A DNA stretch of 64,000 nucleotides from Escherichia coli (GCF_041248615.1 NZ_CP158425.1); one strand, 5' to 3'; counted from the stretch's first letter, positions 51,001 to 60,000 are shown. A program made the numbers.

Positions 51001-54000
51001 ATGAGCAGGTCAAAATCGATCTGACCAAAGTCTCAGCAGATATCAAAAAACTGGTGTTTGCCGTTACCATCTATGATGCAGAAGCGCGTAAACAAAACTT
51101 CGGCATGGTGAGCAACAGCTTCATGCGCGTTTACAACAACGACAACGGCACGGAAATTGCCCGTTTCGATCTGTCTGAAGATGCCTCAACCGAAACCGCT
51201 ATGGTCTTCGGTGAACTGTATCGTCATGGCGCTGAGTGGAAGTTTAAAGCTGTCGGTCAGGGCTTTGCCGGTGGCCTGGCGGCTCTTGCCTCCCAGCACG
51301 GCGTTAACATCTAAAACAACGCTGAATCATACCCCGGCAATGCCGGGGTTTTTTTTGGTTGCGATCCGCTTTCAGGAGGGAGTAGTAGAAAGGGGACTGG
51401 AAATTTCAGAAAGCAGGTCATGTTAATTCAGACCTGAGCCTTTTAAAGGCAGGAAACGGATTTATCTCTGGTTGCTGGTTAAAGCCGGTATTCCGTGCCT
51501 TTTATCAACAGAATGCCCCTCTGATATATGTTACTTTTGCGGTTTATGAAGGAACGGGATCTGGAACATAAGATACCCGGTCAATCAAAATTCCAGTTCA
51601 ACAGGTATAGAAACTTCAGCGTGATGAAATATGGTGTCACACCATATATACGCCTCACCAGAAATCCAGCGTCCTGAACTAAGCCTGGGGAACATATATA
51701 AGCGCTGCGCTTTAAAAATAATCAAAAATCAGGAGAGTTAATGTGAATCTACAATCCGGACAAAACATACCGCTTCAGCAATCTGCGATCAGGCTGAATC
51801 TTCAGTACCCTGCCAAATCCGGCTTTAAAGGCGAACCCGATACCTGCCTCTTCCTGCTTAATGCTCAGGGAAAGGTAACCGGCGATTCTGACTTTATCTT
51901 TTATAATAATCTGTCTTCTCCTGAAGGGGCAGTAAAGCTCGTTACCGGTTCTCAGCAGTCCAGCATTGAGATAGCACTGGATCGTGTTCCGGCGAACGTC
52001 AGTAAGATTGCGATCACCGTTGTCATTGATGGTGAAGATACTATCAGTGGGCTCAGTTTATTGAGCATTCAGGCTCCTGGTATCGCTGATTTTCAGGCTG
52101 AGACTCAGGGCCGCAGTGAGAAAGCAATCATCCTGGGTGAAGTATATCGGCACAATGGCGCCTGGAAGCTTCGTGCGCTCGGGCAGGGTTTCAACGGTGG
52201 TCTTGAGCCTCTGGCCATTAGCTTTGGCGTTGATGTCGCACAGCCAGCTCCGCAGCCAGCAAAGCCCGCTCGTATCAGTCTGGAAAAGAAACTTGAAACC
52301 AGATCTCCGCGCCTCGTAAGCCTCGCTAAAAAAGCCTCGGTCAGTCTCACTAAAAATAAACTGGACACCCTTGAGGCAGCGGTTGCATTTGTACTTGACG
52401 CATCCGGCTCAATGAGTGGCCAGTTCAGTAAGGGCAACGTTCAGTCTGTGCTGGACCGCATCGCCGTTCTTGCCGCCCAGTTCGACGACGACGGTGAAAT
52501 GGATGTCTGGGGATTTGGAGAGAAGCACAAGAAGTATCCAAACGTCACACTGGACAACCTGGACACATATATTCAGTCCATTCGCGGGTCTGGAAAGCGT
52601 TCAGCCTGGGAGAACCTGCCGGGACTTGGTGGGACAAACAATGAGCCCCCTGTGATGGAAGAAATTGTCGACTACTTTAAGGACTCGAAAATCCCGGTAT
52701 ATGTTGTATTTATTACCGATGGCGGGATCAGCAAGACCCGGGCGATTAAAGATGCAATCCGGCGTTCTGCCAACTACCCCATCTTCTGGAAGTTTGTCGG
52801 CCTGGGTGGTTCAAGCTACGGTATCCTCAAAAATCTGGATGACTTTACTGACCGCCGGGTTGATAACACCCACTTCTTTGCCATGGATGATTTCGGTTCG
52901 ATCAGCGATGAAAAGTTATATGATAATTTACTGGAAGAATTCAGACCGTGGATCGATGAAACAAAAAGGTTAGGCATCCTGTAATACGCACAGTTTTCGC
53001 ATGGTTAAAGGAGCTCTACAGCAGCTTAATACTGTAGAGCCTTTGTTCACTGGAAATCGTACAGGGAGGAGCATATGGACCGCATCAAGTACCTGAAATG
53101 GATAGCTGAAGAATCACCAACTGATGATGAAATCGACAACTACGATAGTATCATTAGTCGGGGCGCAGAAAGGGCCGAGAAGGTTCAGTTGTCTTTAAGA
53201 CGTTAATATACGGGAGTTTAAATGTTCGCAGAAATCAAAGATAATTATTCGTTAGGTGGATAAAGAAAGGTTGCCATTACCAGCTTTCGACGAGTCGAAA
53301 ATAAAAACCTTATTTATAGTGACAGGGAGTATGAGCTGACGCTTGCCAATGGAACAATAATTAAAAATGTACTTAGAAAAGAAGAGTGGGAACTGTTAGA
53401 AAGCAATTCAATTAAGGTTATATTATAACGAAAATATATTTACAGTTTTGGATAGGTTTCAAACGAGTCCGGACATTTGTACCTGAAGTATCTGACATTA
53501 CAGTTAAGTGACGATTATGTCAGCACGTCTGTTGCTGGCAGCTTAGCTATCGGTCTAAAAGCTGATCCATTAATAATTCTTCGTAAAGCCCAGAGGTATC
53601 GGGCTTTATTACAATATCCGTTATTTCGAAGCGTTCAAGTACAAATTGCAGATATTCCGGAGTAACGTAGTAGGGATCAGGTTCAGCCAGATTAGTATAG
53701 AGTGGGTCTTCTGCTGCATTAATGTCATAATCAATGCACATATGAAACCACTGCAAAGGTGGATCCCAGCCTAACATCACCTGAACAATTCCCTGATTGC
53801 TTTTCACCTCATACCAGTGCTGGCTCATACTTAGTCCTTAAGAAAATTTGTCATCGGAAAATAACACGAAGCCTGCATCATCGAGGCGCATAACCTTCTT
53901 CCCTTAACGCCTGTTGTAATTTATCAACTGCGCTTTTCATTACCCAGGCTTCTTCGTCACTCACAGCACAACCACGTAGATCGCTCCAGCTCAGACGTTT

Positions 54001-57000: not shown

Positions 57001-60000
57001 GTATATCGGAAATTATGGAGGTTCTGAGTAATTCAGACCGTGCTGAGCGTGACAAAGCGCAGTTTTTTATGACGCAGATAATTTTCTGGATGATGGCCGC
57101 AACAGATGGCCACGCTAAAAATTTCAGTATTTCTATTGGGCCACAGGGACGTTATCACCTTACACCAAACTATGATGTGTTGTCGGCATGGCCGGTGATC
57201 GGTCATGGGAACAATCAGATATCCTGGCAGAAGTGCAAACTGGCGATGGCCGTACGTGGCAGTAGCAACTATTACCAGATATATCGAATACAACGACGCC
57301 ACTGGATCAGGCATGGTGAGATAACCGGCCTGAGTAAACAGCAGACAGAGGCGATGATAGAGGAAATCATCGCCAGAACCCCGGGTGTCATTGAACGTGT
57401 TAGCGGGCTTCTTCCGGACCAGTTCCCCCAGCAGCTTGCGGAAAGTATTTTTGATGGAATGAGGCAGCAATGCAGGCGCCTGGCTGAGAAATGACAGCCG
57501 CAATTTATAGTGTGCATGTTTTCAGAATAGCTGATGTAAGCGTGAGGATTCAGTATGACTGAAGAACAAAAAAGAATAGAGCGGGCTATTGAGTTGGCTT
57601 GTCGTTACGGCGGAACCGATGAAATGCATCATCTGCAATGGGTCGTGGATCAGATGGTAAGAGAACTTGCTGGAGAACGTTATGCACAGATTGTAGCTGA
57701 TGCCACCAGCGGAGAAGATGGGCCTGATACTTACAAATGGAGTGTTGGGATCGCGCCTTAACAGCTGTCGGTCTGGGGGTGAAAACGTATTCTTCATTCA
57801 GCGAATTCCCAGGCTTCACATTAAGACTAAAGCGGCGGCCGCAGTAACGTAAGAGAAAATAAATGGCTATTTTAGCAATCATTGCAGTTATCGCCCTGGG
57901 TGGGTACGCCTACGGATTTATTAAAACCCGTGAGCTGAGCGCTTTGCGTAAAGAAATGAAACTATACGTGGATCGCATGGAAGCGGCGGAGCTGGACTTA
58001 CACGCAATCAGAAGTGTAGCGGAGCACCGGTTGCACGGTGCAGGTAAACAGTTTGCCGACCTTTACAGCCGTATCGACGGTGCAACTGTGACGCTGACAC
58101 CCGAAGATCAGCTGTTACTGGCAACGATGCCATTTAATATTCAGGATGTAGAAGACATCGTAAACGAGCGCGGTCCAAAGACAATTAGCGGCCGTCCATT
58201 CTGGGAAGTTGAGCCAGGCCCGCATGATTATGAATATGGCCCGCAATATCCGTATTTCCCAGACCAGCGCTAGGAAGAGATCAAGATGAGAGAGCCAAGA
58301 CCACGCCATACCTTGCAGGTCATTCGTGTACCTTCTCTGGAGGTTCAGGACCTGGGGCTGACCAGCTTTGATAGCTGGCTTGACGAGCACGGGTATGACA
58401 AAACGAATGCCAGAAATAACCGTACCATCTGGGCGAGAGAAGGCGGATGGCATCTGAAACGTTGCAGAAATCTTGAAACTGGCACGGACGATTTCTGGTT
58501 TATCGCTTTCGATGGTAAAGGCGGGAAGATTTACCCGCTGAAAACCCAAAGAGACTACCGGGCTGCATATCGTAAGCTGGAAGCAGAAGGTTATGCGCCT
58601 GCGGTCATCGAGCAAATGACCACAGGCGCAGCATATAACCTGGCCTATCCACGTTCCACCCTAAAACAAGCTGAGACGGCCACCAGCGAGCCAATTCGGA
58701 AACCTGACGTAGATATCCAGGGTGAGCACTGCGAGCGCGTAGTGACGCAACGTAGTGGCGTGGCACAGGGTAAATTCAAAGCTCTGCTCATCGAGAATTT
58801 CGCAGGCCGTTGTGCGGTAACCGGTTGGGTTAATGGAGGTGTCCTGGATGCGGCACACATTGAACATGGAACCCGGTACAATCCGTCTAATGGCATCCTG
58901 ATGACTCCAACAATGCATGCGCTGTTTGATGCCGATCTTATGGGCATAGATCCGGCCACCCTGACCGTTCATTTTAAGCCAGGCATTGAGGTGGGCGAGC
59001 TGTTTGAAGGCCGTAAAATCACACCGCTGGTGTACGATCTGGACTTAGAGCGGCTGGCCGTACGCTGGGCAGAATACCAGGGCCTTGCTCAGGACCAATG
59101 AAGGGTGACAGCCAGGTTGTGCCTAAACCTGGCAGTAAAACCTGCATGCCACAAACCTTTAAATTCTGACTCAAGAGCCTGGCACAAGATAAAAGCGAAA
59201 TGAAAAGGTTAAAACCGGTGCACCAGACCTCTTAGGTTTAATACCTGAGCCAGTATACTGGCAGTCTCAGGTAAGTGGGTATCATACACTTCAGAAATAT
59301 CCACACCGAGATAACCGCAACAGTTAAAGAGCTAAAAAGGACGGTTTTAATTTTATGAATAAAACAGCTTTAATTATGATTCTGGGAATCCTCGGATGTG
59401 GTAAAGCATTTGCAGCCACTGAATTACAGCTCCAGCAAAAACGCGTTATGCATTTCTGTGCCAATGCCAGCCTTCCGTTGTTGATTGCCGGTACAACTTA
59501 TGCGAATACGTCTGACAATGGACGACCAGAAAAAGAAAGAGTGGCAATCCTGAAAAATTCAGTTGCAAGCTCGACAGCTTATAAAATGGCATCTCCCGGA
59601 GTTCAGATGGCCATGATGAGCGTGGTGGAAGATATTGCCGATCCGAAAGAATTAGCTCTACATCAAAAAGAAGTTAGACGTCTTGGGGCTAGTTATCTTT
59701 CCGACAGCGGTGTTTCATGGGCTTCAAAAACTGTTTCACCATTTACAGCCTGGTGTAACTTTAACCGTTTAGAAAGTTAAGGCTGGCAAGGCGGTTTCTG
59801 TTCAGGAAAGTTACTTTCCGTGCGGGGACCGTAAGATACAGATAAAGCTTAAGGCCTTTGAATTTTTGGAAAGCATTTGAAAATTTCATTGCGCTTGTCT
59901 GATATGAAACAGCCCTGCATTTCTGCAAAGGCTGAAAGAGTGTGTACGGACTTTGGAAGGAGTGATGATATACGCCTGAGCCATCCCATCACCGCAGACA

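What the first reader, a model, noticed from the sequence alone, without database searches (positions are those of the whole stretch)
53547..59780. hipBA toxin-antitoxin embedded among small unknown genes and an HNH nuclease
hipB and hipA are 4 bp apart and look intact. Upstream is a convergent triplet of small minus-strand ORFs (53547-54532); downstream is an HNH-domain protein flanked by a TM-anchored and a secreted small protein. HipBA on a plasmid may serve stabilisation or persistence; whether the HNH gene is a stand-alone nuclease or part of a larger module is unclear.
Basis: partly seen in the sequence, partly recalled or inferred. Interest (0 to 1): 0.3.

Follow-up and report, generated by a model that had tools for sequence, protein, structure and literature searches.

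The report
Known IncHI2 plasmid hipBA toxin-antitoxin cassette
This is the intact hipB-hipA toxin-antitoxin pair that more than a thousand sequenced IncHI2 resistance plasmids carry, sitting in a variable stretch of the plasmid next to an independent DNA-cutting enzyme gene; it is ordinary and already annotated, although this version has never been tested in the laboratory.

Summary
The window is IncHI2 plasmid backbone, 100% identical to pSA186_MCR1 and many others. hipB (55868-56164) and hipA (56169-57494) are 4 bp apart. HipA matches E. coli HipA structures at E=1e-100 (41% identity) and keeps every catalytic and regulatory residue checked. HipB ends in the conserved C-terminal Trp.

New detail: four palindromes, TACAGC-N6-GNTGTA, lie 27-28 bp apart and overlap a promoter-like site upstream of hipB. 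They occur nowhere else in the 64 kb. The same four-site array precedes a 68%-identical hipBA in Cronobacter. They differ from the E. coli TATCC-N8-GGATA operators.

The HNH gene is stand-alone. Its 79% and 42% homologues occur without hipBA or the flanking small genes. Its fold is closest to the modification-dependent restriction enzymes TagI and VcaM4I, but its N-terminal domain is unidentified.

hipBA, the 68-aa ORF (o68) and the 136-aa ORF (o136) occupy a variable slot. The slot runs from an invariant-armed 253-bp hairpin element (55336-55588) to the HNH gene. Other IncH plasmids hold different cargo there, including Bunzi-like defence genes.

The most likely role of hipBA is plasmid addiction or growth arrest. 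That role is inferred, not shown. Novelty is low.

The parts
53547..53828 (-). 93-aa ORF (o93), lineage-specific, no family hit
   Evidence: ORF; annotated as hypothetical WP_000077926. No Pfam, NCBIfam, PADLOC or PHROG hit. Only its last 53 nt are shared with R478-type IncHI2. Coding status is not independently supported.
53878..54069 (-). 63-aa DUF7706 protein (o63)
   Evidence: PF24806 at E=1.1e-25. Conserved at 96% in R478-type IncHI2 with pN/pS 0.36. About 69%-identical DNA homologues exist in IncN plasmids, next to GNAT and PLD genes.
54161..54502 (-). 113-aa hypothetical protein (o123; the ORF extends to 54532 = 123 aa)
   Evidence: Against the R478-type allele: 9 synonymous versus 2 non-synonymous differences, pN/pS 0.06. 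Only a weak 39-residue JetB-like hit, which I treat as not meaningful.
54875..55267 (+). 130-aa acidic protein (o143), conserved IncHI1/HI2/HI1B backbone gene
   Evidence: pN/pS 0.00-0.22 against five alleles. 94% amino-acid identity in an unrelated-cargo plasmid. No family hit. The AF2 model was unusable (pLDDT 53).
55336..55588 (.). 253-bp element bounded by a perfect 17-nt inverted repeat; right arm = end of the conserved backbone block
   Evidence: Inverted repeat. Both arms are invariant in 7 IncH plasmids while the interior is about 80% identical. Homology breaks exactly at 55588 in L006, L010 and L011. Plus-strand RNA fold z=-5.2. Single copy per plasmid. No Rfam match.
55742..55840 (+). 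hipBA operator array: four palindromes ACAGC-N6-GNTGT at 55742, 55770, 55798 and 55825, overlapping the promoter-like site TTGATA-17-TATGTT (55790-55818)
   Evidence: All 7 strand-matches in 64 kb fall here, against 0.79 expected. The same four-site array with 28/27/28 spacing precedes the Cronobacter hipB. Half-sites are invariant while spacers diverge. Promoter scan.
55868..56164 (+). hipB antitoxin / HTH repressor (98 aa)
   Evidence: HTH_3 at 4.5e-15. Best PDB hit is E. coli HipB 2wiu_B at 1.4e-6. Below the NCBIfam HipB equivalog cut-off (41.5 versus 79 bits). The C-terminal residue is Trp.
56169..57494 (+). hipA Ser/Thr kinase toxin (441 aa)
   Evidence: E=1e-100 to E. coli HipA structures. 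41% identity. S156, K163, K187, D313, H315, N318 and D336 equal E. coli S150, K157, K181, D309, H311, N314 and D332. HipA_C and Couple_hipA domains. 1158 plasmid records at 95% identity or more.
57555..57761 (+). 68-aa ORF (o68) that travels with this hipBA allele
   Evidence: Co-transferred with hipBA in pPSV, where the shared block is 55719-57873 at 98.7%. Absent next to the Cronobacter hipBA. GAGGA ribosome-binding site. Weak phrog_23179 hit only.
57863..58273 (+). 136-aa N-terminally membrane-anchored protein (o136), IncHI2-restricted
   Evidence: 19-residue hydropathy 2.23 at residues 2-20. tblastn finds it only at 90% identity or more, in 1142 IncHI2-type plasmids. pN/pS 0.2. No family hit.
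58286..59101 (+). 271-aa two-domain nuclease: family-specific N-domain (about 5-120) plus C-terminal HNH_2 domain
59355..59780 (+). 141-aa protein (o141) with a signal-peptide-like N-terminus
   Evidence: Hydrophobic N-terminus followed by AFA|A. 95% identical in R478-type with pN/pS 0.2. Not found next to HNH homologues elsewhere.

Best explanation
The core of the finding is a canonical, intact, two-gene hipBA type II toxin-antitoxin cassette carried in the IncHI2 plasmid backbone.

HipA (441 aa) is a Ser/Thr kinase of the E. coli HipA type. When free, it would phosphorylate an aminoacyl-tRNA synthetase (GltX in E. coli K-12), stopping translation and growth. HipB (98 aa) is an Xre-type HTH dimer. 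It binds HipA and, with it, occupies four palindromic operators (TACAGC-N6-GNTGTA, 55742-55840) that overlap the promoter, so the operon represses itself. Cells that lose the plasmid can no longer replace the labile HipB, and HipA arrests them. That would give plasmid addiction or stabilisation, with drug tolerance as a by-product.

What is shown here: gene order, domain content, catalytic-residue conservation, the operator array and its conservation in a diverged homologue, and purifying selection.

What is inferred: toxicity, HipB lability, the kinase target and the stabilisation phenotype.

The neighbouring genes are not part of the cassette. The cassette (plus o68 and o136) is one of several alternative cargos in a variable slot of IncH plasmids. 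The slot lies between a conserved hairpin element downstream of o143 and a stand-alone HNH_2 nuclease. That nuclease is most likely a restriction-type enzyme of the TagI/VcaM4I kind.
For: - Identity of the region with IncHI2A plasmids.
- HipA domains and E=1e-100 matches to E. coli HipA structures, with all key residues conserved.
- HipB HTH domain, best PDB hit E. coli HipB, C-terminal Trp.
- A 4-bp gap with an internal ribosome-binding site.
- Four operator palindromes found only upstream of hipB: 7 strand-matches against 0.79 expected. They overlap a promoter-like site.
- The same four-site architecture precedes a 68%/57%-identical HipA/HipB pair in a Cronobacter IncFIB plasmid, where hipBA is a bare two-gene cassette.
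- pN/pS of 0.19-0.34 for hipA and 0.26-0.52 for hipB.
- 1644 of 1668 plasmid hits cover at least 80% of HipA.
- hipA/B transcripts are detected as differentially expressed from an IncHI2 plasmid in Salmonella (PMC13183382).
- Plasmid stabilisation has been shown experimentally for another plasmid-borne hipBA (PMC11487325).
- HipBA mechanism background comes from PMC8262856.
- HNH independence. HNH fold.
- Slot structure.
Against: - No experiment on this allele was found. The literature only assumes a stabilising role.
- The stabilisation demonstrated in PMC11487325 is for a HipA that is only about 45% identical to this one.
- HipA is only 41% identical to E. coli HipA, so the kinase target could differ. 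TrpS, for example, is the target of the related HipT kinase of the HipBST system.
- HipB scores below the NCBIfam equivalog threshold.
- The surroundings contain defence-type genes: the HNH nuclease, an HsdM remnant, a nuclease-helicase pair, and Bunzi-like genes in sister lineages. That is equally compatible with a phage-defence role.
- IncHI2 plasmids also carry partition systems and other TA genes, so the contribution of hipBA to stability may be small.
Confidence: 0.72

Rival explanations
1. hipBA here works mainly as an abortive-infection anti-phage module. It would be one item of a small defence island on the plasmid, rather than an addiction system.
For: - The slot and its surroundings hold defence-type genes. 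These include an HNH_2 nuclease with a TagI/VcaM4I-like fold and PADLOC HNH hit, and an HsdM_N remnant.
- There is also a GajB-like UvrD helicase with a CoiA-like partner.
- In R478-type plasmids, BnzB (6.5e-53) and BnzA-like genes lie directly upstream of hipBA.
- The 42% HNH homologue sits beside Lamassu genes.
- HipA-family kinases have been validated in phage defence with other partners (PMC13092281). HipA gives weak hits to the PADLOC candidate PDC-M03A.
Against: - No canonical HipB-HipA pair has been shown to defend against phage in the papers found.
- The validated HipA-type defence system uses a different partner protein.
- The PADLOC hits to HipA are weak (4e-5).
- Co-location is suggestive, not a test. 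Addiction and defence are not mutually exclusive.
Confidence: 0.15
2. hipBA mainly raises antibiotic tolerance or persistence of the host, which benefits a multidrug-resistance plasmid during treatment. Any effect on plasmid inheritance is secondary.
For: - HipA of E. coli is the classic persistence kinase (PMC8262856).
- An IncHI2 plasmid carrying hipAB increased ciprofloxacin tolerance in Salmonella, although the authors attributed this to oqxAB and other factors (PMC6617520).
- The hipBA operon was lineage-associated in a multidrug-resistant Salmonella clade (PMC11271444).
Against: - Wild-type residues are present at the hipA7 positions (G25 and D295 correspond to E. coli G22 and D291), so no high-persister allele is present.
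- No direct test of this allele was found.
- Wild-type hipBA in E. coli gives little persistence without overexpression (established knowledge).
Confidence: 0.1
3. The HNH gene forms a functional module with the adjacent membrane-anchored o136 and secreted o141 proteins. One example would be a membrane-associated nuclease or effector-immunity set, possibly co-transcribed with hipBA.
For: - Only 12 bp separate o136 and HNH.
- All the genes are on the same strand.
- No strong terminator was predicted between hipA and HNH.
- o136, HNH and o141 are all under purifying selection between IncHI2 lineages.
Against: - HNH homologues at 79% identity (L006-L008) and 42% identity (L002-L005) have no o136, o141, o68 or hipBA homologue nearby by tblastn.
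- o136 is restricted to IncHI2 at 90% identity or more.
- In many IncHI2 plasmids the HNH gene is cut after residue 143 or 82, while o136 and hipBA stay intact.
Confidence: 0.05

Closest known systems
E. coli K-12 HipBA (HipA PDB 2wiu/3dnt/3tpd; HipB 2wiu_B)
   Same: - Gene order is hipB then hipA, with a few-bp gap.
- HipA has the N-terminal plus C-terminal domain architecture and a nearly equal length (441 versus 440 aa).
- The autophosphorylation Ser, catalytic Asp, Mg-binding Asp and ATP-binding Lys residues are identical.
- HipB is an Xre-type HTH ending in Trp.
- Four palindromic operators overlap the promoter.
   Different: - HipA identity is only 41%, and the HipB match is weak (E=1e-6).
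- HipB is 10 residues longer.
- The operator sequence is TACAGC-N6-GNTGTA instead of TATCC-N8-GGATA, which has 0 matches in the window. The two systems are therefore probably regulated independently in an E. coli host.
- The location is a plasmid, not the chromosome.
- The kinase target is untested.
Plasmid-borne HipBA of Klebsiella michiganensis pPSKoxy4_2 (IncA/C; PMC11487325)
   Same: It is a plasmid-encoded hipBA with hipB upstream. It was shown to be toxic, neutralisable and plasmid-stabilising, which is the role proposed here.
   Different: It is a different HipA cluster. The likely IncA/C-type hits are only about 45% identical to the window HipA. The IncHI2 allele itself has not been tested.
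Modification-dependent (Type IV) HNH restriction endonucleases TagI (6ghs) and VcaM4I (6yex)
   Same: - The protein is a single polypeptide of about 270-310 aa with an N-terminal accessory domain plus a C-terminal HNH domain.
- No adjacent intact methyltransferase gene.
- Located on mobile elements or defence islands.
   Different: - TagI uses an SRA-like N-domain and VcaM4I a PUA/EVE N-domain to read modified cytosine.
- The N-domain here (residues about 5-120) matches no Pfam family and is modelled at low confidence.
- Modification dependence is therefore a conjecture.
Bunzi defence system (BnzA/BnzB; bioRxiv 10.1101/2022.05.11.491447)
   Same: In R478-type IncHI2 and in pPSV, the same cargo slot holds a BnzB homologue (6.5e-53) and a BnzA-like membrane protein immediately upstream of hipBA.
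   Different: These genes are not present in the window lineage, where 130 bp (55589-55718) stand in their place. The BnzA-like protein is short (165 aa, matching only the C-terminal part). It is accompanied by a trypsin-like protease.

Membership tests
HipBA type II toxin-antitoxin system | Toxin with HipA N-terminal (Couple_hipA) and HipA_C kinase domains | tested here: met
   PF13657 at 75.9 bits (cut-off 22.5) and PF07804 at 174.3 bits (cut-off 30.5). TIGR03071 at 93.5 bits.
HipBA type II toxin-antitoxin system | Kinase catalytic and regulatory residues intact (E. coli S150, K157, K181, D309, H311, N314, D332) | tested here: met
   S156, K163, K187, D313, H315, N318 and D336 align to these positions.
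HipBA type II toxin-antitoxin system | Xre/Cro-type HTH antitoxin gene immediately upstream in the same operon | tested here: met
   HTH_3 at 4.5e-15. A 4-bp gap, with the hipA ribosome-binding site inside hipB. Best PDB match is HipB. Below the NCBIfam HipB equivalog cut-off, 41.5 versus 79 bits.
HipBA type II toxin-antitoxin system | C-terminal Trp of HipB (inserts into a HipA pocket in E. coli) | tested here: met
   HipB ends ...QEDW. The Cronobacter homologue ends ...REAW. The structural role of the Trp is from established knowledge and was not modelled here.
HipBA type II toxin-antitoxin system | Multiple palindromic operators in the promoter for autoregulation | tested here: met
   Four TACAGC-N6-GNTGTA sites at 55742-55840, unique in 64 kb and conserved in a diverged homologue. 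Protein binding itself was not tested.
HipBA type II toxin-antitoxin system | HipA toxicity neutralised by HipB; labile antitoxin; tRNA-synthetase phosphorylation | not testable with these tools
   This needs expression, stability and phosphoproteomic experiments. No publication testing the IncHI2 allele was found.
Type IV (modification-dependent) HNH restriction endonuclease, TagI/VcaM4I type | HNH_2 nuclease domain with a conserved catalytic His / Asn / His | tested here: met
   PF13391 at 30.6 bits (cut-off 21). H191, G203, H211 and D215 are invariant, and N202 is nearly invariant, in 29 sequences.
Type IV (modification-dependent) HNH restriction endonuclease, TagI/VcaM4I type | Fold similarity of the nuclease to solved members | tested here: met
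   [not shown]
Type IV (modification-dependent) HNH restriction endonuclease, TagI/VcaM4I type | N-terminal modified-base reader domain (SRA, PUA/EVE, or similar) | tested here: inconclusive
   No Pfam, NCBIfam or PDB sequence hit for residues 1-150. pLDDT is 35-78. Distant HNH_2 relatives do carry an N-terminal domain with a conserved 'EVNFW' motif, which I read from memory as PUA-like and did not test; it does not align with this N-domain. The N-domain recurs only fused to HNH_2.
Type IV (modification-dependent) HNH restriction endonuclease, TagI/VcaM4I type | No cognate methyltransferase; cleavage depends on modified DNA | not testable with these tools
   No intact methyltransferase gene is adjacent. 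There is only an 84-aa HsdM_N remnant 1.1 kb downstream. Substrate preference requires biochemistry.

The most novel reading that the evidence does not exclude
The 253-bp element at 55336-55588, with its invariant 17-nt inverted-repeat arms, is a functional boundary or recombination structure. It could act as a folded single-stranded DNA or RNA, or as a protein-bound inverted repeat. It would define a shared 'cargo slot' of IncHI1, IncHI2 and IncHI1B plasmids. Addiction and defence modules are swapped in and out of that slot, between the element and the stand-alone HNH nuclease. The cargos seen are hipBA, Bunzi-like genes and unknown genes. The HNH nuclease would itself be a new Type IV restriction family with an unrecognised sensor domain.
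Probability: 0.2. Interest if true: 0.5.

Novelty: already known. Interest (0 to 1): 0.2.

Why it matters
IncHI2 plasmids are major vehicles of mcr-1, mcr-9, ESBL and heavy-metal resistance genes. What keeps these 200-300 kb plasmids in their hosts therefore matters in practice.

hipBA is routinely named as an IncHI2 stability determinant, yet this allele has never been tested. The operator motif defined here, which is distinct from the chromosomal E. coli hipBA operators, gives a concrete handle for such tests. It can also be used to ask whether the plasmid and chromosomal systems cross-talk.

The finding itself adds little that is new. The gene pair is annotated in over a thousand records and behaves on paper like the textbook system.

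The comparative by-products are modest leads rather than discoveries. They are the variable cargo slot bounded by a conserved hairpin element, and a stand-alone TagI/VcaM4I-like nuclease with an unknown N-domain.

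Tried and rejected
- **E. coli operator motif.** TATCC-N8-GGATA has 0 matches in the window, so the E. coli operator is not used here.
- **Rfam.** A scan of 53000-61200 at E<=1 gave no match.
- **MITE or IS-derived hypothesis for the 55336-55588 inverted repeat.** Rejected. There is one copy per plasmid record. The element is in 405 of 5426 E. coli genomes, with a median of one place per genome, nearly all on plasmids. No further copies of the arm occur in the window.
- **Covariation for the hairpin.** The base stem is invariant, so it is uninformative. Only 9 of 71 pairs show compensatory changes among 7 related sequences. This does not decide between an RNA, a single-stranded DNA or a double-stranded DNA role.
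- **PDB sequence search with the HNH protein.** No hit at E<=1.
- **Exhaustive search with HNH residues 1-150.** Strong hits are all HNH_2 fusion proteins. Hits to giant Big_9/cadherin adhesins arise from many weak repeat matches, and I treat them as spurious.
- **AF2 model of the 130-aa o143 protein.** Only 6 sequences were available and mean pLDDT was 53, so no fold search was run. Many apparent divergent homologues were frameshifted assembly products.
- **Weak hits set aside.** These were JetB for o123 (E=6.6e-5 over 39 residues), cdh for o93, and DUF4272 for o136.
- **o68 as a third hipBA component.** Rejected as a general feature, because it is absent from the Cronobacter cassette. It does co-travel with this allele.
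- **A frame error of mine.** My first pN/pS run for o143 used a start coordinate off by one base and gave values above 1. The corrected run gives 0-0.22.

Full report
**Where the window comes from.**
- The 7.2-kb stretch 53000-60200 is 100% identical to many IncHI2A conjugative plasmids, such as pSA186_MCR1. It matches 1528 plasmid records in Escherichia, Salmonella, Enterobacter and Klebsiella.
- It lies between the tellurite-resistance operon with its VWA gene (to 52984) and a UvrD-like helicase gene (61137-63176, minus strand).
- RefSeq annotates the region as 'helix-turn-helix transcriptional regulator', 'type II toxin-antitoxin system HipA family toxin', 'HNH endonuclease signature motif containing protein' and eight hypothetical proteins.

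**Checking the observation.**
- hipB (55868-56164) and hipA (56169-57494) are separated by 4 bp, with an AGGAGG ribosome-binding site inside the end of hipB.
- The three minus-strand ORFs are o93, o63 and o123. The HNH-domain ORF is at 58286-59101. The N-terminally hydrophobic 136-aa ORF (o136) is at 57863-58273, and the 141-aa ORF (o141) with a signal-peptide-like start is at 59355-59780. All are real ORFs and are annotated as genes.
These are a 130-aa gene (o143, 54875-55267), a 68-aa gene (o68, 57555-57761), and two non-coding features in the 600-bp gap before hipB.

**The hipBA pair.**
- HipA carries both Pfam HipA domains well above threshold. It matches the E. coli HipA crystal structures at E=1e-100 over residues 7-431.
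- I counted 174 identities in 420 aligned positions, which is 41%.
- The residues that define activity in E. coli HipA are all conserved:
  - the autophosphorylated S150;
  - K157 and K181;
  - the catalytic-loop residues D309, H311 and N314;
  - the Mg-binding D332.
- The two positions altered in the hipA7 high-persistence allele (G22, D291) are wild type.
- HipB has an Xre-type HTH. Its best solved relative is E. coli HipB, and like it the protein ends in Trp.
- HipB is diverged enough to fall below the NCBIfam HipB equivalog cut-off.
- Between the two main IncHI2 lineages, hipA and hipB show pN/pS of 0.34 and 0.52. Against the pPSV copy the values are 0.19 and 0.26.
- 1644 of 1668 plasmid hits cover at least 80% of HipA.

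**Operators.**
- The E. coli operator TATCC-N8-GGATA is absent from the whole window.
- Instead, four 16-bp palindromes ACAGC-N6-GNTGT start at 55742, 55770, 55798 and 55825, with spacings of 28, 28 and 27 bp.
- They give 7 strand-matches in 64 kb against 0.79 expected, and none lies anywhere else.
- They bracket and overlap a promoter-like TTGATA-17-TATGTT at 55790-55818.
- A hipBA pair in a Cronobacter malonaticus IncFIB plasmid is 68% (HipA) and 57% (HipB) identical. It has the same four-site array with 28/27/28 spacing, and again nowhere else in the 11-kb locus.
- In an alignment, the TACAGC and GNTGTA half-sites are invariant while the 6-bp spacers and the inter-site DNA differ.
- This is a good phylogenetic footprint for HipB autoregulation. 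It shows an operator specificity different from the chromosomal E. coli system. Actual protein binding is inferred.

**What is known about this cassette.**
- Papers on IncHI2 plasmids routinely list hipA/hipB as a backbone stability module. PCR found hipA in 25 of 25 IncHI2 plasmids (PMC4855149).
- Its presence is offered as an explanation for plasmid stability (PMC6306219; PMC6617520).
- hipA/B transcripts were differentially expressed from an IncHI2 plasmid in Salmonella (PMC13183382).
- I found no experiment on this allele.
- Plasmid stabilisation by a plasmid-borne hipBA was first demonstrated in 2024, for a different variant on an IncA/C plasmid (PMC11487325). The likely IncA/C-type hits are about 45% identical to the window HipA.
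- The mechanism I give is the established one (PMC8262856). HipA phosphorylates a tRNA synthetase, and HipB neutralises it and represses the promoter.
- That mechanism is applied here by homology.

**The HNH gene.**
- The 271-aa protein has a C-terminal HNH_2 domain (PF13391). H191, G203, H211 and D215 are invariant, and N202 is nearly invariant, across 29 relatives.
- An AlphaFold model is confident only for the C-terminal domain (pLDDT 80-96). The N-terminal 150 residues score 35-78.
- The N-terminal domain has no Pfam, NCBIfam or PDB sequence match.
- An exhaustive search with residues 1-150 finds this domain only fused upstream of HNH_2, in proteins of 285-540 aa.
- Hits to giant adhesins are repeat-driven, and I discount them.
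- The protein therefore works like a restriction-type HNH nuclease. Whether it reads a DNA modification is unknown.

**Is the HNH gene part of a module?** No.
- A 79%-identical homologue lies in another H-type plasmid context (Hha, H-NS and ars genes). It has none of hipBA, o68, o136 or o141 nearby.
- A 42%-identical homologue lies in an Enterobacter integrative island, next to an integrase and Lamassu genes. It also lacks all of these neighbours.
- o136 is found only in IncHI2-type plasmids, at 90% identity or more.
- In a sizeable minority of IncHI2 plasmids the HNH gene is truncated after residue 143 or 82, while hipBA, o68 and o136 remain intact. In pC45_001, for example, a transposon with IS4321 follows the break.

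**The small ORFs.**
- o63 is a DUF7706 protein (E=1e-25), with homologues in IncN plasmids.
- o63 and o123 are retained in the R478-type lineage, with pN/pS of 0.36 and 0.06.
- o68, o136 and o141 give 0, 0.2 and 0.2, though the substitution counts are small.
- o143 is an acidic 130-aa protein conserved across IncHI1, IncHI2 and IncHI1B plasmids, with pN/pS of 0-0.22.
- o93 is specific to this lineage and has no support beyond the ORF and its annotation.
- None of the small ORFs except o63 hits Pfam, NCBIfam, PADLOC or PHROGs meaningfully.

**Mosaic structure.**
- Pairwise comparisons show sharp, recurrent homology breakpoints at 55588 and 55719, and at the HNH start codon.
- Left of 55588 lie o143 and a 253-bp element bounded by a perfect 17-nt inverted repeat: TTGCATGTCCTCATCCC and GGGATGAGGACATGCAA.
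- Both arms are invariant in seven IncH plasmids, although the interior is only about 80% identical. The sequence immediately right of the right arm is unrelated in each lineage.
- Between that arm and the HNH gene, the different plasmids carry:
  - hipBA-o68-o136 (this window);
  - a trypsin-like protease, a BnzA-like membrane protein and a BnzB homologue (6.5e-53), followed by hipBA-o68-o136 (R478-type IncHI2 and, with insertions, pPSV);
  - a 67-aa ORF (L006/L007 and pHCM1);
  - 76-aa and 401-aa ORFs (p112298-catA and pF418-IMP).
- hipBA is therefore one interchangeable cargo in a variable slot. In Cronobacter, hipBA is a bare two-gene cassette in a quite different setting.

**The hairpin element.**
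- It folds strongly as plus-strand RNA (-111.5 kcal/mol, z=-5.2). The minus strand gives z=-2.5.
- It has no Rfam match.
- It is single-copy and almost entirely plasmid-borne, so it is not a multicopy MITE.
- Its function remains unexplained.

**Most likely function.**
- The best-supported reading is that hipBA is a self-contained, autoregulated toxin-antitoxin cassette that stabilises the plasmid by arresting plasmid-free segregants.
- A phage-defence role is a real rival, given the defence-type neighbours. HipA-family kinases have also been shown to defend against phage when paired with other partners (PMC13092281).
- A tolerance role is a weaker rival.
- These roles are not mutually exclusive, and none can be separated by sequence analysis.

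**Verdict.**
- The finding is correct but ordinary. It is an intact member of a textbook family, already annotated and frequently cited.
- The additions from this work are:
  - the distinct operator motif;
  - the demonstration that the HNH gene is stand-alone and of the TagI/VcaM4I structural type;
  - the description of the cargo slot and its conserved boundary element.
- Interest is 0.2.

Noticed in passing
window 55336-55588: A 253-bp element bounded by a perfect 17-nt inverted repeat, 69 bp downstream of o143. Both arms are invariant across IncHI1, IncHI2 and IncHI1B plasmids while the interior is about 80% identical. The right arm marks the exact end of conserved backbone. Plus-strand RNA fold z=-5.2. 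No Rfam match. Single copy per plasmid. Function unknown.
   Followed up: partly
window 60222-60476 (+): An 84-aa ORF is an N-terminal remnant of a Type I restriction-modification methyltransferase (Pfam HsdM_N 1.8e-9; PADLOC MTase_I 4e-16). It is a decayed defence gene lying between o141 and the helicase.
   Followed up: partly
window 61137-63176 (-) and 63173 to beyond the window end (-): A UvrD-like helicase (PADLOC GajB-like, 1e-51) overlaps by 4 bp a 284-328-aa partner. The R478-type allele of the partner gives a weak CoiA_N hit. This looks like a nuclease-helicase pair, with no PADLOC system assignment. In R478-type IncHI2 the pair sits on the other side of o143, which indicates a rearrangement between lineages.
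   Followed up: partly
L018 4313-7062 (R478-type IncHI2), L010 5313-8062, L011 1663-5751: Sister IncHI2 lineages and pPSV carry three extra genes between the hairpin's right arm and hipBA. These are a trypsin-like protease, a 165-aa membrane protein (BnzA-like, 1.6e-6) and a 462-aa BnzB homologue (6.5e-53), forming a Bunzi-like anti-phage gene set. The window lineage has only 130 bp (55589-55718) there.
   Followed up: partly
L018 12243-13100; L001 23791-24129 (beyond the window end): A second HNH_2 gene follows further downstream, just before the plasmid H-NS gene. It is 285 aa in the R478-type lineage and a 112-aa remnant in the window lineage. IncH backbones therefore carry two paralogous HNH_2 nucleases.
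   Followed up: no
window 53075-53206 (+): A 43-aa ORF annotated as a gene appears to be the truncated 5' part of a 151-aa gene that is present in R478-type IncHI2 (L017 3407-3862). The downstream 53207-53775, including o93, is specific to this lineage.
   Followed up: no
window 55868 versus 55871: The PLSDB/RefSeq table places the hipB start one codon downstream of the ATG at 55868, on an ATC codon. The ATG, with a GAGG motif 9 nt upstream, looks like the natural start.
   Followed up: no
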